Sequence record: MF158039
Direction: 5' to 3' (one strand)
Length of the DNA: 47,647 nucleotides
Source of the DNA: Shigella phage Sf12
Below the pieces are notes generated by a model. That model worked only from the letters and a program-made list of their open reading frames with translations, searched no databases and was not told the DNA's origin. Shown piece by piece: positions 1 through 47,647 of this stretch (position 1 is the stretch's first letter; every line of letters starts with the position of its first letter). Both the position numbers and the translations under genes were made by a program.

Positions 1-257
1 ATATATATATATTAAGGACTTATGGCGTAAGTCATGGCGTAGCTTGGCGTACCTCGCGTAACGATGGCGGCTCAGCTTACATCGCGCTACTGAGGTTACG
101 TGTATATGAAGGAAAAGGCCATGGCGAGCGATAAAACCAACCAACTAGTTGATACACTCCCCTTCATTCCATCCATCCATCAACCATTGCTCAATTCGCA
201 ACAGTCCAGAAAATCATTGCAATCGATGCAATATTGCTATACATGCAATAGTACTGT
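1..257. repeat. Terminal direct repeat, left copy (identical to 47391..47647); true length may be longer because the window ends inside it
   Basis: Exact identity of window start and end read directly; repeat period 47,390 bp. Confidence 0.9.
24..70. repeat. Five GGCGTA-type direct repeats phased at about 10 bp inside the terminal repeat
   Basis: GGCGTA at 24, 36, 46, (G)CGTA at 56, GGCGG at 66; one helical turn apart. Confidence 0.7.
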
Positions 258-296: not shown

Positions 297-342
297 AATA
301 GCACTTTTTGCTAATGACCATTCAGCCCTGATTGGCTATAGT
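297..342 (+). promoter_or_regulatory. Junction cassette copy: palindrome TAGCA-N5-TGCTA (299..313) then -10-like TATAGT (337..342) and conserved leader
   Basis: aatagcactttttgctaatg; 23-bp gap to TATAGT; leader acaacgaggagagaaagaATG. Confidence 0.55.
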
Positions 343-1478: not shown

Positions 1479-3062
1479 ATGTTTGATTTTAACGAAGATA
1501 AGTTATCAGTAGAACAGGTAATGTCTGTAGCTGCAGCTGAGAATCTGCCACCTTTACGAGTTGCTATTAATGCAAATGGCTATCGCCAGAGCGCTTCATT
1601 CTGGAAAGCTCCTGTTGAGATTGATTCAACTGGTGATAAATATCCGGTCATTTCACTTGGAAATGATTGTGATGTCGTTGGTAAGTTATCAAGCAATATC
1701 GCACGCTCAGTTCAGTTCCCTGAGTCATCTGCTTATATGCATTTTCTTGGCTGCATATCAGCAGCAATGCTTGGTCGCTTCACTGTTGAATACCATGGAA
1801 CTCAGCAGCCTACATCCCTGTACGTCGTGACCAGTCAGCCACCATCAACTGGTAAATCTGCTATTAACTCATTATCAATCGCGCCAATGATTGCAGAGAC
1901 TGAACGACTGAATGAATTACGCAAGCGCGACCGTAAGAAGATTATGGCCAAATTGTCAGCGCTAGCCAAAGAGATGAAGCAGGAGAAGTCACCATCAGAG
2001 ATGGCTGGATTATTCGAAGAGAAAGAGGAACTGGAGGAGAAGTTAGAAAAGCTGTGTGACATTGTTTTTCCGGTGTCCGATACCACGCCTGAAGGCCTTG
2101 CTCGAATCAACAGTCGACAGGGTAACTTTTCAGTAATCTCCGATGAAGCAACTAGCGTGAACTCACTGTTAGGCATGACATATGGTGACGGCTCAAAGAA
2201 AACTAACAGCGAGCTGGTACTTAAAGCATGGGATGCTGGCAACGTATCTATCGCGCGTGCGAATGCAGAGAACAACATGAGCTTCATTGCCATGGGTTGT
2301 ATCTCGGTAATTGCGCAGGATGAAACAATCGTGGCCATCATGAATGCCGGCGCGCGTGGTATCGGTGTATCCGAACGTTTCTTGCTTGTGCGTGAAAAAT
2401 CATTCCTTGGTGAGCGTGTGTTCGTCGATGATGATGGCGAGTCAACATATGAACCAATTGATGGAGCTCTGAAGGCTGATTACTTCCGTCTGGTACATGA
2501 AATTATGAATGAGCAAGATGTTAAGCTGACTGTCAGCAATTCGGCAATGAAGCATCTCAATCGCGCGCGGCAGGAAATGGAGCCTCACCTTGCAGATGGC
2601 GGCAAATATTCACATACAATGCTGCGCGGCGCTTTGGGTAAAATGGATAAGCAGGTAATTCGACTTGCAGCAGTTCTTCACACTATCCGTAACTGGTTTA
2701 ACCCTAACGGCGGTAGTCCGCAGAAATCCAGAGAGATTGAACTGGAAACGATGCAGGAGGCTTTATTAATGTTTGAAGAGCTTAGTAAGACTTACTTGTC
2801 TTCCGCTAATGCTGCTGGTCACGCAGGTGATAATGCAGAGATGAATAAGCTAATTGATATCCTGATTAAGCAAGGCAAGAACAGCAAAGGAGTTGTAGGG
2901 TTGCGCTCACTTTATGAGGCTGCGCGTAAGGTTCGACCTTTTGAGGCTCAGACTGGCGTAATGGCTAAGATTAAAGACCATTTACTGCCGATGCTTGATG
3001 AGAAAAACTACACCTGCCTGATTGGTGATAAGGTTTACATTAATCCACGACTGCTGGGGTAA
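1479..3062 (+). CDS. P-loop NTPase-containing protein, 527 aa; N- and C-terminal segments are paralogous to 46060..46605
   Basis: Walker A-like QPPSTGKS; N-term MFDFNEDKL..NLPPLRVAINANGY and C-term KGVVGLRS..CLIGDKVYINPRLL shared with short paralog. Confidence 0.6.
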   Translation: MFDFNEDKLSVEQVMSVAAAENLPPLRVAINANGYRQSASFWKAPVEIDSTGDKYPVISLGNDCDVVGKLSSNIARSVQFPESSAYMHFLGCISAAMLGRFTVEYHGTQQPTSLYVVTSQPPSTGKSAINSLSIAPMIAETERLNELRKRDRKKIMAKLSALAKEMKQEKSPSEMAGLFEEKEELEEKLEKLCDIVFPVSDTTPEGLARINSRQGNFSVISDEATSVNSLLGMTYGDGSKKTNSELVLKAWDAGNVSIARANAENNMSFIAMGCISVIAQDETIVAIMNAGARGIGVSERFLLVREKSFLGERVFVDDDGESTYEPIDGALKADYFRLVHEIMNEQDVKLTVSNSAMKHLNRARQEMEPHLADGGKYSHTMLRGALGKMDKQVIRLAAVLHTIRNWFNPNGGSPQKSREIELETMQEALLMFEELSKTYLSSANAAGHAGDNAEMNKLIDILIKQGKNSKGVVGLRSLYEAARKVRPFEAQTGVMAKIKDHLLPMLDEKNYTCLIGDKVYINPRLLG

Positions 3063-3065
3063 TTT

Positions 3066-3401
3066 ATGTTCATACTGGATGTGTTCAGGTTCTGCGAGAG
3101 TTACGAGCGATTCAACAGACAGCATTTGGCGGTATTCATTTACCGCCACAAGGACTGTGAACGCATGGCCAAATCCGCTAGAGTTACCACAAGGTACTTT
3201 GCATCATCTGCTTCAAAGGAGTTTTTAGCGAGGTGCATGACTGAAGGTTACATCGATGGGGTTAATGGTAATTACTGGAGTAAAGGTAGCACAAAGCGAC
3301 CGTTCGGATTCAGCTTCAGATGCCTTAATGGTGAGAGTGATAAGTACACCAATGAGATGATGACGATAAAAGAAATGACAGACGACCAATTGTTCGCATA
3401 A
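3066..3401 (+). CDS. Hypothetical protein, 111 aa
   Basis: ORF track; followed by bidirectional terminator. Confidence 0.4.
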   Translation: MFILDVFRFCESYERFNRQHLAVFIYRHKDCERMAKSARVTTRYFASSASKEFLARCMTEGYIDGVNGNYWSKGSTKRPFGFSFRCLNGESDKYTNEMMTIKEMTDDQLFA

Positions 3402-5204: not shown

Positions 5205-5250
5205 AATATACGCCATCTTTTGATTTCTGTTTTAGCAATTCGTGCTATTT
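5205..5250 (-). promoter_or_regulatory. Junction cassette copy: palindrome (5233..5247) and -10-like TATATT (complement of 5205..5210)
   Basis: ttagcaattcgtgctattt; stop codon of HNH gene lies in the palindrome. Confidence 0.55.
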
Positions 5251-7194: not shown

Positions 7195-7240
7195 ACTATA
7201 CGCCATCCATGGCGATGTGTTTTAACAAAAAGTGCTATTT
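7195..7240 (-). promoter_or_regulatory. Junction cassette copy: palindrome-like TAGCA-N5-TGTTA (7223..7237), -10-like TATAGT (complement of 7195..7200)
   Basis: 22-bp gap; leader catcgaaacgagatataagagagtaaaacaATG. Confidence 0.5.
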
Positions 7241-8610: not shown

Positions 8611-8656
8611 ATAATACAACATCCTTGGTTTTCGTCTTTAGCAATTCGTGCTATTT
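8611..8656 (-). promoter_or_regulatory. Junction cassette copy: palindrome (8639..8653), -10-like TATTAT (complement of 8611..8616)
   Basis: tttagcaattcgtgctattt; palindrome encodes the C-terminal NSTNC and stop of the upstream gene. Confidence 0.55.
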
Positions 8657-17346: not shown

Positions 17347-17949
17347 CTATTGTTTTTCTTTGTATCCTACAGCTTCAAGCAGAAAGTTGGTTAGATGCGG
17401 GTTGCTTTCTAACGACCTCAAAGCAAGCTTGATGTTTCCTGACTCCCAAAGCATCTTAAATGTACTAACAACCATTGCATTTCTGATGTTCGAATCTTCC
17501 ACATTGACCCCATCAAGGAACCTTTTGTTTTTGACAGCTTTGGCTTGAACCTCAAGAATCCCATGAATAAGCGCATCATGCTTTTTCTTAAGGTCTACAA
17601 TTAAATCATAAACAACCTCACGAACGACCTTACTACTGCGCATTCCCATGATTACCATCTGCTTGTAGCTGAGCTCGTAAACCAAAATTTCTGAACGAGC
17701 GTTGCTACCTTTTCTATCTACCATTTTTTGGTAGATAGACGGACCCGCGCCAATACTGATTTGCTTTGAAAATTCATCTTCAATTTGTTTGATGAACTGG
17801 TTGTGCCTCAACCCATCCTCTCCATTTTCCTTTCGAACCTTATTGATTACTGTGTTAAGAAATTCGTGAGAGTCCATAGTGAACTCGCCAATCTCTCCGA
17901 CTTTATTGATGTTATCTAAGTTTAAAATACTCATTTTATATCCCTTCAA
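17347..17949 (-). CDS. Hypothetical protein, 200 aa
   Basis: ORF track; first gene of leftward operon leaving the control region. Confidence 0.4.
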   Translation of the reverse strand: MKGYKMSILNLDNINKVGEIGEFTMDSHEFLNTVINKVRKENGEDGLRHNQFIKQIEDEFSKQISIGAGPSIYQKMVDRKGSNARSEILVYELSYKQMVIMGMRSSKVVREVVYDLIVDLKKKHDALIHGILEVQAKAVKNKRFLDGVNVEDSNIRNAMVVSTFKMLWESGNIKLALRSLESNPHLTNFLLEAVGYKEKQ

Positions 17950-18348
17950 TTAGTTGTATTGTTTAATGTTTTTTGATTCTTCAATTGCTTCGCAAGTCTC
18001 AATGAATCGATATGAGTCCTCAATGACTCCAATCATAGAGGTCTGTTCTTCAAGATAAACGTCGATAACAGTTATAGTGAAATCGTCAGCATTGATCTTA
18101 GCCAATTCAATCAAGCTATTAACTAGATTATTGGATTGCTCAAACTCACCCTTAACACTCTTTACAGTCGCAAGAACAAATCTGTAGCTTTCATCGTTGA
18201 AGTCTAGTGATTTTATGTATTCACTTGTCTTCGTCATTGATTCAATTCGGCTATTTTTCATCATGTAGCTTTTTGCTTTCTCTGTGTTCATTGTTTTATA
18301 TCTCATTTTTAGCAGCACCATTGCTGCCGATGAGTGCACTATACCCAA
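17950..18348 (-). CDS. Hypothetical protein (probable start at internal Met, about 113 aa)
   Basis: ORF track. Confidence 0.4.
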   Translation of the reverse strand: MGIVHSSAAMVLLKMRYKTMNTEKAKSYMMKNSRIESMTKTSEYIKSLDFNDESYRFVLATVKSVKGEFEQSNNLVNSLIELAKINADDFTITVIDVYLEEQTSMIGVIEDSYRFIETCEAIEESKNIKQYN

Positions 18349-18736
18349 TCAGTATGTATCCGTTTTGATTATTCGTGCTATTTTGTATATCGGTGTAAAC
18401 CTCACCTAAATACGTTTTGATGCTCCGTGCGCCGCATGGATGCTGAGTGTAACTCTTGTAACCAATGTATCCACCAATTTTGCACCCTATCTATATCTAT
18501 ATGCATTTCCTCCTTAACAGGAAATCAAACATAGTCTTTTAGAAAAACATACCAACATAGCAATAGAGAGTAGTTACACTATATACAAACAAATATAGTA
18601 ATAATAATAATTACTCTAAACCCTTATTATATAAGGATTTTATAGTGTAACTAATGCGTATCTGTGCGTAAAAAGCGTATACAATTTTCTGCGGATGAGA
18701 TTGTATACATCGAGTTACATCGGTTACGCGTATATC
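18349..18736. other. AT-rich non-coding control region between divergent operons; candidate origin/regulatory hub
   Basis: tatctatatctatatgcat, (TAA)n at 18598..18613, inverted repeat gtatacaat-N14-attgtatac (18670..18702). Confidence 0.5.
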
Positions 18737-18783
18737 AAATAGCACGATTTGCTAAAGACTCCCGCATCAGCCTTTGCTATAGT
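18737..18783 (+). promoter_or_regulatory. Junction cassette copy: palindrome (18740..18754), -10-like TATAGT (18778..18783)
   Basis: aaatagcacgatttgctaaag; 23-bp gap; leader ccatcgaaacgaaac. Confidence 0.55.
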
Positions 18784-18823
18784 TACTCCATCGAAACGAA
18801 ACATACTCACTAAGGAATACAAA

Positions 18824-18928
18824 ATGACTAACTTCGCAACCAACGTAATGGCCTTCACCTTCGGCGTAGCAACTACTGGTTTCTTCGTGTGGGTACTGCT
18901 GCTGGCTTCAAAATTTAACGGTTTCTAA
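18824..18928 (+). CDS. Small hydrophobic membrane peptide, 34 aa
   Basis: MTNFATNVMAFTFGVATTGFFVWVLLLASKFNGF; tightly coupled to lipoprotein gene. Confidence 0.45.
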   Translation: MTNFATNVMAFTFGVATTGFFVWVLLLASKFNGF

Positions 18929-18938
18929 GGTGAATAAG

Positions 18939-19160
18939 ATGAAAAAATTAATCGTTATCGCAGCAATGATGTTAGGTGGGTGCTCTACGATGCCAGAACG
19001 CACTTGTACGGCGACTTATGAGTCAGGCGGAATGAGTTACTCGGTTTATGTTTTTGGCACGCAGAAGCGCGGTGATGAGCTTTTACTTAGGGCTGGATAT
19101 CCATTCTCGTTCCAGTATGTCTCTGAGCGGAATTTTAAAGACCACGATTGCGGTGGTTGA
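18939..19160 (+). CDS. Small lipoprotein, candidate Cor/Llp-like superinfection-exclusion factor
   Basis: Signal peptide with lipobox MLGGC; convergent on distal tail-tip genes. Confidence 0.55.
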   Translation: MKKLIVIAAMMLGGCSTMPERTCTATYESGGMSYSVYVFGTQKRGDELLLRAGYPFSFQYVSERNFKDHDCGG

Positions 19161-19162
19161 TA

Positions 19163-19190
19163 AAGAAAAAGCCCCGAAAGGGGCTTTAGT
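19163..19190. terminator. Bidirectional terminator
   Basis: aaagccccgaaaggggcttt flanked by A/T runs. Confidence 0.65.
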
Positions 19191-19716
19191 CGTTTGTGAA
19201 TTTTGGTTTGATTACTTCACCATTTGATCCATTCCTTAATTCATAAATCATGTCAAATTCAGAGTTTGTATAAGCATCAACAGTAATCCAATCCTCTGGA
19301 AAAAACTCACCAAATGAACCAGTATACTTGTCATCATCATAGTCACCGATAAACTTACTATAAAAAACCCTTAAATCAGTTCTTGAAAAGTCATAATCAT
19401 CATCACCTAAATCAGACCATGAAATATTGAAGCCCTCTCTCAAGAATGGATCATCTTTAGGCTCCATGACGCCACCTTCATTTAAAACATAATAACCATC
19501 AGAACCATCCTCTGGATTGTACCAATCAAAGTTTCTATAAAGCCTGTATCCATTTAGGATATTAGATAGAATTGAACTAAACTCAGAAAGCCCATACCAT
19601 GAACCGGAAATCTCATCATAACCATACTCAAGATCCCCAATGTCTACATCAAAGTAAAATGGTCCATGATCAACACCACCAACACTCGCCCAAACCAAAG
19701 TTTTTTTAATGCTCAT
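19186..19716 (-). CDS. Hypothetical acidic Trp/Tyr-rich protein at the distal end of the tail module
   Basis: ORF track; position after J. Confidence 0.45.
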   Translation of the reverse strand: MSIKKTLVWASVGGVDHGPFYFDVDIGDLEYGYDEISGSWYGLSEFSSILSNILNGYRLYRNFDWYNPEDGSDGYYVLNEGGVMEPKDDPFLREGFNISWSDLGDDDYDFSRTDLRVFYSKFIGDYDDDKYTGSFGEFFPEDWITVDAYTNSEFDMIYELRNGSNGEVIKPKFTND

Positions 19717-19725
19717 AATTTCCCC

Positions 19726-20442
19726 TTAATCGTAGTTTGATGTATTAATTGCCACAGCAGTAACTCCAGTGTTTATTGAACCAGTCTGAGAGCCAGGTAC
19801 AGTATTGTATCCAGCCGCCCTTATTCTTGTTCTCGAACCGTTGTAGTTAGCTGTTGTGTATAGGTCAATTGTATACCTCTGAGGTATACCTCCAACAATT
19901 TGCTCAGATATTATCGCTCCTAACCTCCTCGGTGATACAGCCCATGATCCAGATAATAATGAGCCGGTATCTATGTTTATACCTCCCCCAGCTTGCCCTG
20001 GTGTTCCAACCGTTCTTAAATCTGAAAGCACCTTCGTTTCGTTAGTTAGTATTAACTTGCCAGCAGCATCCCATATTGCCATGCCCCAATCAGGTAATGT
20101 TTGCGTGAATATCCCGAAAATATATACTGTTGCAGTAAAATTTTCTCCGCTTGAGTTTTGCGCTGTGAAGTAAACATTTCCAGAGTTTGGTCCACTTGTG
20201 AATCTGTAAGCAGCAATTCCCGTACCTGTGTTTGTCTCTGTCGTCTTTGCGAAAACCATGCAAGGTATATCATTTGGAACTGGTATGTAAACTGAACCTG
20301 TCATACCACCACTACCAGAATGGGTTGTTTTTTTGTATAAAGCAAAAGGTGTTGAGTTTGGGGTTATGAATGGATTTCCATTAACATCAATCATTGCACC
20401 ATAAGACATTATTGATTCTCCAGATAAATTACAAGGTAGCAC
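19726..20442 (-). CDS. Hypothetical Gly/Thr/Ser-rich tail-module protein (possible fiber or receptor-binding component)
   Basis: ORF track; composition; position after J. Confidence 0.45.
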   Translation of the reverse strand: MLPCNLSGESIMSYGAMIDVNGNPFITPNSTPFALYKKTTHSGSGGMTGSVYIPVPNDIPCMVFAKTTETNTGTGIAAYRFTSGPNSGNVYFTAQNSSGENFTATVYIFGIFTQTLPDWGMAIWDAAGKLILTNETKVLSDLRTVGTPGQAGGGINIDTGSLLSGSWAVSPRRLGAIISEQIVGGIPQRYTIDLYTTANYNGSRTRIRAAGYNTVPGSQTGSINTGVTAVAINTSNYD

Positions 20443-20714
20443 TCTTCTGCTGGATAAACTCCATCTCCAGGCGTTGTTGTTGCTGATATCGTTATAGCGT
20501 TTCCACTTGCGGTTATCTTTCTGGCTGCCTCATTTCCACCAACACTCAAGCTGACTGTGTAACCTAACTTTGTTCCAGACGGTATTGTGTATGAGTAACT
20601 CCCTGAAGTTTGACCAGTCTCAAGCTTAACAACCGCAACAACCGTGACTGGCTTAATCCCATAGTTATTGTAATTACCATTTGCATCATATGTAGCAATC
20701 CCATATGCAGCCAT
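20409..20714 (-). CDS. Hypothetical tail-module protein, 101 aa
   Basis: ORF track. Confidence 0.45.
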   Translation of the reverse strand: MAAYGIATYDANGNYNNYGIKPVTVVAVVKLETGQTSGSYSYTIPSGTKLGYTVSLSVGGNEAARKITASGNAITISATTTPGDGVYPAEECYLVIYLENQ

Positions 20715-20761: not shown

Positions 20762-23700
20762 TTAGTAAACTCCAGTCAAACGGCCAATCTGAACACGAAG
20801 CCTTCCGTTAGCGTCAGCAACAGATATTGTCTCATTTGTTTGCTTCATTCTACCCTCTCCAGCCGTAGAGCCGTTATTTTCGAACGTTCCACCCTTGTCA
20901 AGTCTCCATCCGACAGAGCCAAATACGTAGTTGTTAGACTGAATTGCACCACCAATCTTCGCGTTAGTGATTGAACCGTCCTGAATAACCGCGCTTTGTA
21001 TGAATACCTGGTTATTCTCGACAACGAAAGGCAGCGACCACTGACCGGAACCAGAACTAATGCCGTTACTGATTGCAAACCTGTTAGCATCGAAAATGAA
21101 CTGACTACGAACATTTCCACCACTACCGGTTAACTCCATGCTCATGCCAGCACCGTACTCAACTCCATTGTACTTAAGGCCTAGCTTAACGCCGTACTGA
21201 ACACCAACGCCTTCAACTGTAGCGTAAGAGTCGAGCTTCTGATTCAAAGCCGCCTCGTTATCACCAAGCCTTGCGCTGAGAGCCGTATCAGCAGTAGCCC
21301 TCGCTTCCGTCTCGGTTGCTAGCGCTGTTTCGATAGTTGTAATCTGACCAACAATCTCATCATCAATTTGCGCCTTAAGCTGCGTAAGAGCCTCTACACG
21401 AGCCTCAGTTTCGTTGGCTATTAGATTAACAGCCTGACGATACTCAGCCTTCCTGGCTCCATTTTCACGCCTCATAACACGAACATCAGTATCGTTTGCC
21501 AATGCGTTCTCAATTATTGCCTCGGCCTGGTTCTGAATGTCAGCATTTGCATCTATCGCGTTCTGGAGTAGATACTTGTATCCATCTGAGTTTTCAATAT
21601 CAACCTTAATTTCTCCAATGATTGCACTCACGTCATCCGAAGCCATACCCCTGACAAAATCAGTCCATTGCGATACGTTACCAATCCTGTCGATCGTTCT
21701 TCCCCTATACCAGATCACCTTTCCTGCCGGGAGCGTCGTGTGCCAATACTCAAACTGAGGGTAAGGAACGAGAGTTAACAATGAGGCATTCTCAGGGGTG
21801 TATGTCCCATCGCCATTATCAGCAACTTGCTGCAATTCCACATAAGCAGTATCACCACTATTATTGCCAAAACCCCACTTAACACGGATGCCAAATACTT
21901 CATCATCTGAAGCCGTGATGACCTGCAATGGCTCAGGCTCACCAACCTTACCAGTCAAGCTAACTGTTGTAATTTCAGACCATGCCGATACTGATTTTTG
22001 GTCAGTTACAGCACGAACCCTGACGTCGTAAATGCCAGCGTAGATGCCTTCAATATCAACCTCAGTGTTAGCCGTCTCCGGTACATTAATCCAGTTTCCG
22101 TTATTCTTACGCCATTGCACGTTGTATGTTTTCGCATACTGCACCTTGTCGTAACCGATAACCATCGTCTCAACGCTCATGCCCTGAACTACTTTGCTGT
22201 AACTAGTAACCGTAATGTTCTTCGGTGGTAAAATCCTGTCAGGGTCAACTATGCTTGTTGGCCTGTCGTCGATGTTTACTCCGTAGTCAATCTCATCGTA
22301 CTTGTTAGGGTCATACTGAACAGCCGTGATGCTGTACTGGAATGAATCCTCTCCGTCCGTGTTGGCTTTTTGAATCCCGGTCACAACATATTGCTGTAAA
22401 GCAAGATTCTGCTTGTCGATTGCAAATACCGTATCTGGCTGCGGCGTGAAGCTGAATGCTGTATTCAGCTCAAGCGTCAACTTATCGGCAGATACTGAAG
22501 CGATAGTCCTGTACTCCGGGCTTCCATCTGGCTTGTTGATTAAGATTCTGTCGCCAGGGTCAGCATCAATAGCGAACGGAACAAAAACCTGCAAACCAGT
22601 AGCCTCCACGATTCGACCAGAAAGGTTTAACGTGTAATTGCTTGACCAAGCTTGGTCATTAACAGCAATGACATCACCAATCATAGGAATCATACCTTCG
22701 AGTCCGGTGGTGAATGTTATTGTTTCGCTACGCAAGTTCGTTTTAAGGAGCCAACGACCACGACGGTTAGCCTCGCTACGCCTTACGCATCCAATTGCAG
22801 TCAGGTCTACAGGGTTATACCCAAACCTGCGAGTTGCCTCAAGGTCAAACACTGGCTCTACGTCTTGCTGGTAGTTGTTCTCTACATCATCAAACTGAAC
22901 GTTGGCAGTCGTGTACAAACTCTTATCACTAGCAAACGTGCGGTTGAATAAACCATCGACTACGTTATCATTTGTGAATACGTAACTTGGTTGGCGCGGC
23001 CTGTCAACTACAATCCCAATTTGCTCACCATCATAGAAGGTTAATCCACGGAAAATGGAACAGATGTCACGAATAATCTGATACGCTTCCACTTTCTGCT
23101 GAATGACAACGTTACAAGTATATCGCGGCTCCATTCCACCCTTACCATCCGGGACCATCTGGTCGCAGAATTGCGCAGCTTCATACAGACCCCACTTATC
23201 AATCTCAACTCCAAGCTCTCGCTGGTCAAGCCCATACCTCTGACTGACTACCAGGTCATATAAAACCCACGCCGGGTTATCTGACCATGCCATCTTGAAA
23301 GTTCCATCCCAAGTTCCGCTATAAGTCCGCGTTGCTGGGGTGTAGTTTGTTGGGACTCTAATTATCTTCCACCTTTTCTTGATTGCGATAGGCGGCAACC
23401 CGTTAGGAAAAAGGTCTGAACTGAACTCTACATAAACAAGCGCTGTAAGTGGATAACGGAATTTGGCGTCAATTACTTCCTGATAGGTCGTAATCTGCAT
23501 TCCGTTTACCAGAGTGCTGCTTGTTGAGTCTGGCGTTAACTTCCTAATACGAACAAGAGCGCTGCTAAACTCGGCTGGTAAGTTAACCCTGATACTGCGG
23601 TCGTAACCTGTTGTAGTTTTACCGTTAGCCACGCCTCTGGTATATTCAGTGTACGCTGAGCCATTAACTGATAAATCGATTGCATATTCACATGTTGTGC

Positions 23701-24157
23701 CATTTAAATCTCCATTCTCTTCTTGCTTAACGAGTCTAGGCCAGAACAGCTTGACGCGAATTGCTGATAGCTGACTGTTGTTTACTGCTATGATGTAAGG
23801 TGTATCGTTGTTAATCTCGCGGCTAACCTGAATCTCTGATGCTGCACCATCTAGTCCGGCGATATAGTCTTGAGACTGAGTGCCAGGGCGAAATTCTGCG
23901 GTCACTCCTTCGTAGTTGAATGAGTTATCCTGGTTTTGCACGGGAACGTCAGCAAGGTAAAGGTCTTTAAGTGAAAAGCTTGAGTCAACCTCGCCATCAG
24001 CAACGGCCAGTAGCACCTTAATCTTGTTGAGTGAAATCAGGTTATCTTCTTGCTCTACAGGTGTGTGCTGCTTTTGGCTACCACCCTTGCTTCCATAAAT
24101 CTTTGGCAAATCGGCCATATCATATAACCTCGTTGTTTGTTTAACCATTTGTGCCAT
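20762..24157 (-). CDS. Central tail fiber / host-specificity protein (lambda gpJ-like); probable true start at Met 24118
   Basis: YSGTWDGTF ... DKWGLYEAAQFCDQMVPDGKGGMEPRYTCN resembles lambda J conserved core as recalled. Confidence 0.9.
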   Translation of the reverse strand: MAQMVKQTTRLYDMADLPKIYGSKGGSQKQHTPVEQEDNLISLNKIKVLLAVADGEVDSSFSLKDLYLADVPVQNQDNSFNYEGVTAEFRPGTQSQDYIAGLDGAASEIQVSREINNDTPYIIAVNNSQLSAIRVKLFWPRLVKQEENGDLNGTTCEYAIDLSVNGSAYTEYTRGVANGKTTTGYDRSIRVNLPAEFSSALVRIRKLTPDSTSSTLVNGMQITTYQEVIDAKFRYPLTALVYVEFSSDLFPNGLPPIAIKKRWKIIRVPTNYTPATRTYSGTWDGTFKMAWSDNPAWVLYDLVVSQRYGLDQRELGVEIDKWGLYEAAQFCDQMVPDGKGGMEPRYTCNVVIQQKVEAYQIIRDICSIFRGLTFYDGEQIGIVVDRPRQPSYVFTNDNVVDGLFNRTFASDKSLYTTANVQFDDVENNYQQDVEPVFDLEATRRFGYNPVDLTAIGCVRRSEANRRGRWLLKTNLRSETITFTTGLEGMIPMIGDVIAVNDQAWSSNYTLNLSGRIVEATGLQVFVPFAIDADPGDRILINKPDGSPEYRTIASVSADKLTLELNTAFSFTPQPDTVFAIDKQNLALQQYVVTGIQKANTDGEDSFQYSITAVQYDPNKYDEIDYGVNIDDRPTSIVDPDRILPPKNITVTSYSKVVQGMSVETMVIGYDKVQYAKTYNVQWRKNNGNWINVPETANTEVDIEGIYAGIYDVRVRAVTDQKSVSAWSEITTVSLTGKVGEPEPLQVITASDDEVFGIRVKWGFGNNSGDTAYVELQQVADNGDGTYTPENASLLTLVPYPQFEYWHTTLPAGKVIWYRGRTIDRIGNVSQWTDFVRGMASDDVSAIIGEIKVDIENSDGYKYLLQNAIDANADIQNQAEAIIENALANDTDVRVMRRENGARKAEYRQAVNLIANETEARVEALTQLKAQIDDEIVGQITTIETALATETEARATADTALSARLGDNEAALNQKLDSYATVEGVGVQYGVKLGLKYNGVEYGAGMSMELTGSGGNVRSQFIFDANRFAISNGISSGSGQWSLPFVVENNQVFIQSAVIQDGSITNAKIGGAIQSNNYVFGSVGWRLDKGGTFENNGSTAGEGRMKQTNETISVADANGRLRVQIGRLTGVY

Positions 24158-27103: not shown

Positions 27104-27150
27104 ATAATACACCACTTCACCGATTCGTCTTTAGCAATTCGTGCTATTTA
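27104..27150 (-). promoter_or_regulatory. Junction cassette copy driving the moron: palindrome (27132..27146), -10-like TATTAT (complement of 27104..27109)
   Basis: tttagcaattcgtgctattta; 22-bp gap; leader catcgaaacgaaatgaccaaaacaaacaaacgaggataATG. Confidence 0.55.
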
Positions 27151-44303: not shown

Positions 44304-44350
44304 ATCATATCAACTACCCATTCTGGCGTATTAGCAATTAGTGCTATTTG
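44304..44350 (-). promoter_or_regulatory. Junction cassette copy: palindrome (44332..44346), -10-like TATGAT (complement of 44304..44309); no long ORF downstream
   Basis: attagcaattagtgctatttg; leader catcaagacgaaacgaggagaagaaATG precedes only a 22-codon ORF. Confidence 0.5.
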
Positions 44351-44986: not shown

Positions 44987-45033
44987 ATAGTATCGCATCC
45001 TTGCGATTGATGTTTAGCAATTCGTGCTATTTA
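44987..45033 (-). promoter_or_regulatory. Junction cassette copy: palindrome (45015..45029), -10-like TACTAT
   Basis: tgtttagcaattcgtgctattta; palindrome encodes C-terminal NSTNC of the upstream gene. Confidence 0.5.
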
Positions 45034-46019: not shown

Positions 46020-46066
46020 ATCATAGCTGACTACCCGATTTATTGTTTAGCAATTCGTGCTATTTA
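46020..46066 (-). promoter_or_regulatory. Junction cassette copy: palindrome (46048..46062), -10-like TATGAT (complement of 46020..46025)
   Basis: ttgtttagcaattcgtgctattta; 22-bp gap. Confidence 0.55.
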
Positions 46067-47390: not shown

Positions 47391-47647
47391 ATATATATAT
47401 ATTAAGGACTTATGGCGTAAGTCATGGCGTAGCTTGGCGTACCTCGCGTAACGATGGCGGCTCAGCTTACATCGCGCTACTGAGGTTACGTGTATATGAA
47501 GGAAAAGGCCATGGCGAGCGATAAAACCAACCAACTAGTTGATACACTCCCCTTCATTCCATCCATCCATCAACCATTGCTCAATTCGCAACAGTCCAGA
47601 AAATCATTGCAATCGATGCAATATTGCTATACATGCAATAGTACTGT
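47391..47647. repeat. Terminal direct repeat, right copy (identical to 1..257)
   Basis: Exact identity read directly. Confidence 0.9.

What the first reader, a model, noticed from the sequence alone, without database searches (positions are those of the whole stretch)
18824..19160. Membrane peptide plus lipoprotein pair convergent on the tail-tip module: candidate receptor-masking superinfection exclusion
A 34-aa hydrophobic peptide and a lipoprotein of about 73 aa (lipobox MLGGC) sit on the opposite strand immediately after the distal tail genes, behind their own junction-cassette promoter. Known phage lipoproteins placed next to receptor-binding genes (T5 Llp, Cor of T1/phi80-type phages) inactivate the outer-membrane receptor to exclude superinfection and protect progeny. 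The sequence itself gives no family-level match that I can state.
Basis: partly seen in the sequence, partly recalled or inferred. Interest (0 to 1): 0.7.

Follow-up and report, generated by a model that had tools for sequence, protein, structure and literature searches.

The report
Cor exclusion lipoprotein plus small peptide
The lipoprotein is the well-known phage protein Cor, which shuts the host's FhuA receptor so no further phage can infect, and it is already annotated as such in this phage (Shigella phage Sf12); the only new point is a conserved, mostly unannotated 34-residue membrane peptide translated just ahead of it.

Summary
Window 18824-18928 (+) encodes a 34-aa single-pass hydrophobic peptide. 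Window 18939-19160 (+) encodes a 73-aa lipoprotein (MKK…MLGG|C, Ser at +2). Each has its own Shine-Dalgarno site, and the pair ends at a bidirectional terminator (19168-19187) shared with the convergent tail-tip genes.

The lipoprotein is Cor: NCBIfam equivalog NF047972 scores 50 bits against a cutoff of 31, and PHROG 1119 gives E 2e-28. It is 74% identical to T1 Cor and 37% to phi80 Cor. The exact sequence is in RefSeq as "Cor superinfection exclusion protein [Shigella phage Sf12]". It lies next to the J / gp22-like / gp23-like cassette typical of FhuA-using phages. It keeps the Cys pair of T5 Llp, and its model superposes best on Llp in the FhuA-Llp crystal structure.

The "junction-cassette promoter" is real, with 10 copies of its motif against 0.01 expected by chance.

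The peptide is a genuine gene: pN/pS is 0.40 (0.25 in the C-terminal 21 codons), against about 1.1-1.3 in the other sense frames. It is found only directly upstream of cor, in one Drexlerviridae clade. Its function is unknown.

The core finding is already known, so interest is low.

The parts
18738..18755 (+). Inverted-repeat head of the repeated promoter cassette (AATAGCACGATTTGCTAA; arms TAGCA/TGCTA)
   Evidence: 10 matches with at most 1 mismatch in the window against 0.01 expected. Eight full cassettes were aligned.
18775..18783 (+). Candidate extended -10 element, TGcTATAGT (hexamer 18778-18783). It lies 22-23 nt after the repeat, so the repeat centre is near -43 of an inferred start around 18790.
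   Evidence: T and A at hexamer positions 1-2 and T at position 6 are invariant in all 8 cassettes. The sequence was read directly. Promoter function and start site are inferred. The simple sigma-70 scan did not call this site.
18784..18823 (+). Conserved cassette leader (TACTCCATCGAAACGAAA…) with the Shine-Dalgarno AAGGA at 18812-18816
   Evidence: Alignment of the cassettes and the same leader in relatives.
18824..18928 (+). 34-aa single-pass hydrophobic peptide gene. It is not on record among Sf12 or Sd1 proteins.
   Evidence: 13 variants, always 1 or 10 nt upstream of cor. pN/pS is 0.40 (0.25 for codons 14-34) against 1.06 and 1.26 in the other sense frames. Ser29 uses six codons from both the TCN and AGY families. 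One relative has an in-frame 9-nt indel. The exact sequence is not in the protein collection.
18939..19160 (+). cor: 73-aa outer-membrane exclusion lipoprotein. The signal peptide is 18939-18980, the lipidated Cys15 codon is 18981-18983, and Cys23 and Cys71 are conserved.
   Evidence: NF047972 at 50.2 bits against a cutoff of 31. PHROG 1119 at E 2e-28. T1, phi80 and HK022 Cor matches. RefSeq YP_009792006.1. Invariant cysteines. AF2 model with pLDDT 81. Llp gives the best superposition.
19168..19187 (.). Bidirectional intrinsic terminator shared by cor and the convergent tail-tip operon
   Evidence: 8-bp stem with 5 GC pairs, called on both strands.
19186..19716 (-). 176-aa orphan gene (Sf12_gp36) inserted between the gp23-like gene and the terminator. 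Whether it is an accessory to the locus is uncertain.
   Evidence: No Pfam, PHROG or NCBIfam hit. Five homologues, and the two whose contigs were fetched sit in this same slot. The AF2 model is unusable, with pLDDT 48.
19726..20409 (-). gp23-like gene of the FhuA-type tail-tip cassette (annotated 'membrane associated protein')
   Evidence: PHROG 425 at E 2e-66. 52% identical to the T1 homologue.
20409..20714 (-). gp22-like gene of the FhuA-type tail-tip cassette (annotated 'outer membrane protein')
   Evidence: PHROG 557 at E 2e-30.
20762..24157 (-). J-like central tail fibre / tail tip protein
   Evidence: 1131-aa ORF. Homologues are annotated as GpJ-like in Sd1, JulesPiccard and T1.

Best explanation
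This is the cor operon of a T1-like phage; the window is Shigella phage Sf12, Drexlerviridae. A phage-specific promoter cassette transcribes a two-gene message against the direction of the late tail genes.

The second gene, cor, gives a prolipoprotein that is lipidated at Cys15. With Ser at +2 it is sorted to the inner leaflet of the outer membrane. Its small disulfide-clamped beta domain then binds the periplasmic face and plug of FhuA, as T5 Llp does. FhuA is locked in a state whose extracellular loops no longer accept the phage receptor-binding protein. The infected cell and its debris therefore stop adsorbing this phage and other FhuA-dependent phages.

The first gene gives a 34-residue single-pass membrane peptide translated immediately ahead of Cor. 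It is a real protein under selection, but its role is unknown.

Shown here: gene structure, Cor family membership, genomic linkage to the FhuA-type tail-tip cassette, the repeated promoter cassette, and selection on the peptide. Inferred: lipidation, sorting, FhuA binding, time of expression, and any role of the peptide.
For: Cor family membership:
- NCBIfam NF047972 'phage exclusion lipoprotein Cor' (equivalog) scores 50.2 bits against a cutoff of 31. PHROG 1119 gives E 2e-28 over its full length.
- tblastn found 231 phage records with a homologue, including T1 (74%), phi80 (37%) and HK022 (34%) Cor. The pairwise comparison with phi80 Cor gives E 6e-18 with both mature cysteines aligned.
- The identical protein is named Cor in RefSeq for Sf12, on a contig of 47,647 bp, which is the window length.

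Context:
- J, then PHROG 557, then PHROG 425 on the minus strand. The same order is seen in T1, phi80, HK022 and the Dhillonvirus phage GeorgBuechner.
- The literature ties this cassette to FhuA use (PMC13164509 section 2.5; PMC8594841).
- RobRod40 (CPL00221) carries the same peptide, cor and cassette and depends experimentally on FhuA (bioRxiv 10.64898/2026.04.02.716166).

Mechanistic analogy with T5 Llp:
- Llp is the only PDB hit of the Cor profile, at E 0.048 (single sequence E 0.26).
- The AF2 model (pLDDT 81) superposes best on 8a60_B: TM 0.54/0.62, 2.4 A over 57 columns.
- Cys23 and Cys71 are invariant. They correspond to mature positions 9 and 57, against the Llp Cys11-Cys58 disulfide (PMC9586334).

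Operon signals: two Shine-Dalgarno sites, a 10-nt gap between the genes, the terminator and the promoter cassette.
Against: - No experiment exists on this phage.
- The FhuA assignment is by homology and context only. [quoted passage not shown]
- The sequence and fold matches to Llp are marginal taken alone (E 0.05-0.26; Foldseek E 0.13, ranked below Tudor domains by E-value).
- The sigma-70 scan did not call the cassette promoter, and the distance from its repeat to the -10 element is non-canonical.
- The peptide is absent from most cor loci, so it cannot be required for Cor function in general.
Confidence: 0.88

Rival explanations
1. Two-layer exclusion operon. The 34-aa peptide is an inner-membrane partner that contributes to exclusion itself. 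It might block a post-adsorption step such as DNA passage, the TonB/ExbBD-dependent step or an inner-membrane entry factor, or it might assist Cor.
For: - The peptide is under purifying selection.
- It is found only directly upstream of cor, with a 1- or 10-nt gap, in 13 variants across Rogunavirinae, Braunvirinae and Nouzillyvirus.
- It travels with the swapped FhuA-type module rather than with the phage backbone.
Against: - There is no homology to any characterised protein: Pfam, PHROG and NCBIfam gave nothing, and 1.84 billion representatives gave no hit.
- T1, JMPW1, SRT8, aalborv, GeorgBuechner, phi80 and HK022 have cor without it.
- Plasmid-borne Cor is reported as the exclusion factor in the cited literature.
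Confidence: 0.25
2. The small ORF is mainly a translated leader that sets Cor translation by coupling, and the peptide product has little function of its own.
For: - Its stop codon lies inside or next to the cor Shine-Dalgarno site (TAAGGTGA). The gap is 10 nt, or 1 nt (TAAtATG / TGAtATG).
- The N-terminal 13 codons are weakly constrained, with pN/pS 0.65.
Against: - The C-terminal 21 codons are strongly constrained at the amino-acid level (pN/pS 0.25). Ser29, Ala16 and Gly33 each use 4-6 synonymous codons.
- No RNA structure hides the cor ribosome-binding site (z-score +1.4).
- cor has its own good Shine-Dalgarno site and is expressed without such an ORF in other phages.
Confidence: 0.25
3. 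The peptide is an unrelated small membrane 'moron' that merely shares the transcript, for example one that modulates membrane potential or lysis timing.
For: It is a single transmembrane segment with almost no charge. Phage small membrane proteins of this size often act on membrane physiology (general knowledge).
Against: Its exclusive linkage to cor, and its absence everywhere else that was searched, argue for a cor-related role.
Confidence: 0.15
4. This Cor allele acts on an outer-membrane receptor other than FhuA.
For: Cor-like proteins also occur in BtuB-using phages (PMC13164509).
Against: It is 74% identical to T1 Cor. The gp22/gp23-like genes are of the FhuA-linked type (52% identical to T1). 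RobRod40, which has the same locus, is FhuA-dependent.
Confidence: 0.06

Closest known systems
Cor superinfection-exclusion lipoprotein of T1, phi80, N15 and HK022 (NCBIfam NF047972; PHROG 1119)
   Same: The sequence family, size, lipobox and conserved Cys pair are the same. So is the position at the end of the J / gp22-like / gp23-like cassette. The gene is convergent with its own promoter, as in T1 and other Drexlerviridae.
   Different: It is preceded by a conserved 34-aa membrane-peptide cistron that T1, phi80 and HK022 lack. An extra orphan 176-aa gene is inserted between the tail-tip cassette and the terminator.
T5 Llp (lytic conversion lipoprotein; PDB 8A60 with FhuA)
   Same: It is a small lipoprotein encoded beside the receptor-binding genes. 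It has the same small beta fold in the model, the same terminal disulfide pattern and the same presumed target, FhuA.
   Different: Sequence similarity is only marginal (E 0.05-0.26), so it belongs to a different sequence family. T5 is a different phage family with a different receptor-binding protein (pb5).
Rtp45 / Oekolampad exclusion lipoprotein acting on LptD (PDB 9RPS)
   Same: In Rogue1-like relatives (AHP42), the lipoprotein gene at the position of Rtp45 in Rtp-type phages uses the same promoter cassette, leader and first four codons (MTNF) as the peptide gene here. The slot and the regulation are therefore the same.
   Different: There is no meaningful sequence similarity to Cor or to the peptide beyond codon 4. 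Rtp45 targets LptD, and in AHP42 the 320-aa gene that follows (taken here to be the RBP) is on the same strand. Homology of the AHP42 lipoprotein to Rtp45 was not tested here.

Membership tests
Cor exclusion lipoprotein (NF047972 / PHROG 1119) | Full-length sequence match above the curated family cutoff | tested here: met
   50.2 bits against a cutoff of 31, residues 1-71 on profile positions 1-76 of 78. PHROG 1119 at E 2e-28.
Cor exclusion lipoprotein (NF047972 / PHROG 1119) | Direct similarity to experimentally studied Cor proteins (T1, phi80, HK022) | tested here: met
   74%, 37% and 34% identity over at least 97% of the length. phi80 pairwise E 6e-18.
Cor exclusion lipoprotein (NF047972 / PHROG 1119) | Lipoprotein signal peptide with lipobox Cys, and no Asp at +2 (outer-membrane sorting) | tested here: met
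   MKK-LIVIAAMM-LGG-C15-S16, read from the sequence. G14 and C15 are invariant in 18 homologues. Lipidation itself was not tested.
Cor exclusion lipoprotein (NF047972 / PHROG 1119) | Conserved intramolecular Cys pair in the mature domain | tested here: met
   C23 and C71 are invariant and are aligned with the phi80 Cor cysteines. Disulfide formation is not testable here.
Cor exclusion lipoprotein (NF047972 / PHROG 1119) | Linkage to the J / gp22-like / gp23-like FhuA-type tail-tip cassette | tested here: met
   PHROG 557 and 425 lie downstream of J. The same order is seen in T1, phi80, HK022, JulesPiccard and Sd1.
Cor exclusion lipoprotein (NF047972 / PHROG 1119) | Excludes FhuA-dependent phages and inactivates FhuA functions when expressed | not testable with these tools
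   Needs plating, adsorption and ferrichrome or albomycin assays.
T5 Llp family | Significant sequence similarity to Llp | tested here: inconclusive
   Llp is the top or only PDB hit, but at E 0.26 (single sequence) and 0.048 (profile). The match covers the N-terminal 45-51 residues.
T5 Llp family | Same fold as Llp bound to FhuA | tested here: inconclusive
   8a60_B gives the best TM-score (0.54 query / 0.62 target) and the best rmsd (2.4 A over 57 columns). Foldseek E is 0.13, and many Tudor/SH3-like small barrels score similarly.
Rtp45-like LptD exclusion lipoprotein | Sequence similarity to the lipoprotein in the equivalent slot of LptD-type relatives | tested here: not met
   Cor against the AHP42 lipoprotein matches only in the signal-peptide region (18.9 bits). 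The peptide against that lipoprotein is identical only in codons 1-4.

The most novel reading that the evidence does not exclude
The conserved 34-aa transmembrane peptide is a functional second component of a two-gene exclusion operon. In this reading it is an inner-membrane factor that adds a post-adsorption block, or that is needed for full Cor activity, in the Rogunavirinae/Braunvirinae lineage. Cor-type exclusion would then be a two-membrane system in these phages.
Probability: 0.25. Interest if true: 0.5.

Novelty: already known. Interest (0 to 1): 0.18.

Why it matters
The core finding adds nothing new. Cor and its link to FhuA-type tail-tip cassettes are published, and this gene is already named Cor in RefSeq.

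Three modest points remain:
- **A small protein gene that is often missed or mis-annotated.** It is not on record for Sf12 or Sd1, and in the Phleasolo and Sadiya records it is labelled 'putative lipoprotein' from a wrong upstream start. It is co-inherited with cor in one clade, and it is a cheap target for an exclusion assay.
- **A recombination anchor.** The promoter cassette plus the first four codons (MTNF) is shared between the FhuA-type and LptD-type exclusion modules. This marks one border of the swappable receptor-specificity module and could be useful for engineering.
- **A repeated promoter cassette.** It carries a palindrome near -43 and may define a co-regulated gene class in these phages.

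Tried and rejected
**Searches for the peptide**
- Pfam gave nothing for either protein.
- The full HMMER search of 1.84 billion representatives found nothing.
- tblastn of the phage collection found 8 records, each with the peptide a few bases upstream of the record's cor gene.
- Back-translated pattern scans found only Sd1 in IMG/VR and one cor-linked metagenome contig.

**Ideas tested and dropped**
- The peptide as a remnant of the signal peptide of the lipoprotein that occupies this slot in LptD-type relatives (AHP42; the slot of Rtp45 in phage Rtp). Rejected: identity stops after codon 4 and the remainder aligns no better than chance.
- An RNA structure hiding the cor ribosome-binding site. 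Rejected: the region folds no better than shuffled sequence (z-score +1.4).
- An Rfam family in 18300-19300. Only sub-threshold noise over the terminator.

**The 176-aa neighbouring gene**
- No family hit and no phage-collection hit.
- It is unrelated to the ORF in the same slot in Sd1.
- The AF2 model has pLDDT 48, so no fold search was run.

**Other**
- The sigma-70 scan called only weak AT-rich sites at 18582-18620 and not the cassette.
- Literature searches for the cassette motif and for Sf12/Sd1 papers found nothing useful.
- PMC1367250 (the Rtp genome paper) is not held.

Full report
**1. What is in the sequence**

- **ORF A (18824-18928, +)** encodes MTNFATNVMAFTFGVATTGFFVWVLLLASKFNGF. 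AAGGA lies 8 nt upstream of its ATG. Its best 19-residue Kyte-Doolittle window (residues 8-26) averages 1.96, which fits one transmembrane segment. Its only charged residue is K30.
- **ORF B (18939-19160, +)** encodes 73 aa. AAGGTG lies 6 nt upstream and overlaps the stop codon of ORF A. Its N-terminus, MKK-LIVIAAMM-LGG-C, is a textbook lipoprotein signal peptide. Ser at +2 predicts outer-membrane sorting.
- **Terminator.** The pair ends at a stem-loop with 5 GC pairs (19168-19187) that scores as a terminator on both strands.
- **Convergent genes on the minus strand.** These are a 1131-aa J-like tail tip gene (20762-24157), a 101-aa gene (20409-20714), a 227-aa gene (19726-20409) and a 176-aa gene (19186-19716).

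**2. Identity of the lipoprotein**

- Pfam has no model for it.
- PHROG 1119, 'Cor superinfection exclusion protein', matches end to end at E 2e-28.
- The NCBIfam equivalog model NF047972, 'phage exclusion lipoprotein Cor', scores 50.2 bits against a curated cutoff of 31.
- tblastn finds 231 phage records with a homologue. They include T1 (74% identity), phi80 (37%) and HK022 (34%), the phages in which Cor was defined. Against phi80 Cor the pairwise E-value is 6e-18, and both cysteines of the mature domain align.
- An exact-sequence look-up shows the same 73-aa protein in GenBank/RefSeq. It is recorded as 'putative superinfection exclusion protein' and 'Cor superinfection exclusion protein [Shigella phage Sf12]' (ATE85761.1, YP_009792006.1). 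The contig is 47,647 bp, which is the length of the window.
- The 176-aa neighbour is Sf12_gp36 at 100% identity.

The window is therefore the Sf12 genome, and the gene is already annotated. The closest relative in the phage collection is Sd1 (Rogunavirinae, Wilsonroadvirus), at 94% nucleotide identity over this region.

**3. Context and receptor**

The genes after J match PHROG 557 and PHROG 425. The 227-aa protein is 52% identical to its T1 counterpart.

The order J, gp22-like, gp23-like, cor recurs in several phages:
- in T1, JMPW1, SRT8, aalborv and the Dhillonvirus phage GeorgBuechner, with cor convergent;
- in phi80 and HK022, with cor co-directional.

The literature links this cassette to FhuA use and treats Cor as the cognate exclusion protein (PMC13164509 section 2.5; PMC8594841, Drexlerviridae section). 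RobRod40 (CPL00221) has the same peptide, cor and cassette arrangement. It was shown experimentally to depend on FhuA, together with NupG (bioRxiv 10.64898/2026.04.02.716166). FhuA as the target here is thus a strong inference, not a demonstration.

**4. How it most likely works**

The solved relative is T5 Llp. In the FhuA-Llp crystal structure, Llp sits on the periplasmic face. It binds a non-native plug conformation and makes extracellular loops 7 and 8 fold inward over the receptor-binding site. Llp has a Cys11-Cys58 disulfide that ties its termini together. The authors note about 20% identity to Cor, including that disulfide (PMC9586334).

Results obtained here:
- Llp is the top PDB hit of the single sequence (E 0.26) and the only hit of a profile of 18 Cor sequences (E 0.048).
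- Cys15, Cys23 and Cys71 are invariant in those 18 sequences. That places the mature Cys pair at positions 9 and 57.
- An AlphaFold2 model (mean pLDDT 81, above 90 across the beta domain) is a small four-strand beta structure. Its best superposition in the PDB is 8a60_B: TM 0.54/0.62, 2.4 A over 57 columns, 23% identity.
- By Foldseek E-value, that match (0.13) ranks below several Tudor domains.

I therefore treat 'works like Llp' as well supported and 'is a member of the Llp sequence family' as unproven.

**5. The promoter**

- The motif AATAGCAC-N3-TTGCTAA (arms TAGCA/TGCTA) occurs 10 times in the window with at most one mismatch, against 0.01 expected.
- Eight copies carry a full cassette: the repeat, then 22-23 nt, then a TAnnnT hexamer, then a conserved leader (TACTCCATCGAAACGAAA), then a Shine-Dalgarno site and the ATG of a mostly small ORF.
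- Upstream of the peptide gene, the hexamer is TATAGT (18778-18783), preceded by TG at 18775-6.
- The repeat is too far from the hexamer to act as a canonical -35 element. Its centre falls near -43 of an inferred start around 18790. That position suits an activator or operator site. This is inference only, and the simple sigma-70 scan did not call the site.
- The same cassette precedes cor in relatives with the peptide and without it (aalborv and L030).

**6. The 34-aa peptide**

Thirteen distinct variants were recovered, of which twelve are 34 aa long and one is 31 aa. They come from:
- the window (Sf12);
- seven phage genomes or groups: Sd1, the Phleasolo group, JulesPiccard, Phagiculus, RobRod40, MM01 and BUCT-XGG-1;
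- five metagenomic contigs.

They span Rogunavirinae, Braunvirinae and Nouzillyvirus, and the gene always ends 1 or 10 nt before the cor ATG.

The coding evidence is good:
- Across 12 sequences, pN/pS is 0.40 in the ORF frame against 1.06 and 1.26 in the other sense frames, which also carry stop codons.
- Codons 14-34 give 0.25 and codons 1-13 give 0.65.
- Variable sites by codon position number 15, 13 and 27.
- Ser29 uses six codons from both the TCN and AGY families. Ala16 and Gly33 use four codons each.
- BUCT-XGG-1 has an in-frame 9-nt deletion.
- A gene caller called the 34-aa ORF on one metagenomic contig.

Annotation status:
- The exact peptide is not among the recorded Sf12 or Sd1 proteins.
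- In the Phleasolo and Sadiya records it is annotated from an upstream start and labelled 'putative lipoprotein'. It has no lipobox, so that label is wrong.

Distribution and homology:
- T1, JMPW1, SRT8, aalborv, GeorgBuechner, phi80 and HK022 have no such ORF upstream of cor. Neither do two metagenomic cor loci.
- No homologue or family was found by any search.
- No RNA structure hides the cor ribosome-binding site.

The peptide is thus a real, lineage-restricted companion of cor whose function is unknown. I rate three readings:
- about 0.25 that it contributes to exclusion;
- about 0.25 that it matters mainly as a coupled leader cistron;
- about 0.15 that it is an unrelated small membrane protein.

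**7. Module swapping**

Rogue1-like phages (AHP42 and about 19 other listed records) share window 18500-18835 at 92-96% identity and then diverge. In AHP42 the same cassette, leader and first four codons (ATG ACT AAC TTC, MTNF) start an 81-aa lipoprotein, which is followed by a 320-aa protein. This corresponds to the Rtp45-type LptD exclusion lipoprotein and its receptor-binding protein (PMC12685063), although homology of the AHP42 proteins to Rtp45 and Rtp44 was not tested here.

One border of the exchangeable receptor module therefore lies four codons into the first cistron. The peptide belongs to the FhuA-type module, not to the phage backbone.

**8. Verdict**

- The core is already known and already annotated for this phage.
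- The only unreported element I could find is the small peptide, together with the details of the cassette and the orphan 176-aa gene.
- Interest is low.

Noticed in passing
window 297-314, 1401-1418, 5232-5249, 7222-7239, 8638-8655, 18738-18755, 27131-27148, 44331-44348, 45014-45031, 46047-46064: A repeated promoter cassette. Its parts are the palindromic head AATAGCAC-N3-TTGCTAA, 22-23 nt, a TAnnnT hexamer, a conserved TACTCCATCGAAAC leader, a Shine-Dalgarno site, and the ATG of a mostly small ORF. There are 10 motif copies against 0.01 expected, and 8 full cassettes. The palindrome centre near -43 suggests a site for a regulator. A Rha-like regulator gene (17347-17949, minus strand) lies close by. 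Function and timing are untested.
   Followed up: partly
window 19186-19716 (-): A 176-aa acidic orphan gene (Sf12_gp36) sits between the gp23-like gene and the terminator. No Pfam, PHROG or NCBIfam hit and no hit in the phage collection. Five homologues (48-100% identity), and the two whose contigs were fetched (L031, L032) sit in the same slot. GC content is lower than in the flanks (0.35-0.39). Sd1 carries an unrelated 186-aa ORF in this slot, so it looks like an insertion hotspot. The AF2 model was unusable.
   Followed up: partly
window 18500-18835 compared with L004 (AHP42) 3001-3336: There is a sharp recombination joint four codons into the first cistron. LptD-type Rogue1-like phages share the promoter cassette, leader and MTNF start at 92-96% identity. 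They then encode an 81-aa lipoprotein (in the slot of the LptD exclusion lipoprotein Rtp45) and a 320-aa protein instead of the peptide and Cor.
   Followed up: yes
window 18650-18708: Upstream of the cassette there are three GCGTA repeats (18656-18679) and a perfect 9-bp inverted repeat, GTATACAAT…ATTGTATAC (18677-18685 / 18700-18708). Both features are largely conserved in Sd1 and Phleasolo. An AT-rich (AAT)n stretch lies at 18590-18610. Their role is unknown.
   Followed up: no
window 78-110 and 47468-47500: The same query segment (18706-18738) hit both of these places with identical scores. This suggests a short direct repeat, or a GTTACA-type motif cluster, near both ends of the genome.
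   Followed up: no
L002 3251-3430 (Phleasolo); L003 3208-3363 (JulesPiccard); L019 3134-3364 (RobRod40): Public annotations of the small ORF use upstream starts and give 51-76 aa products. In the Phleasolo and Sadiya records the product is labelled 'putative lipoprotein', although it has no lipobox. The conserved Shine-Dalgarno site and ATG give 34 aa.
   Followed up: yes
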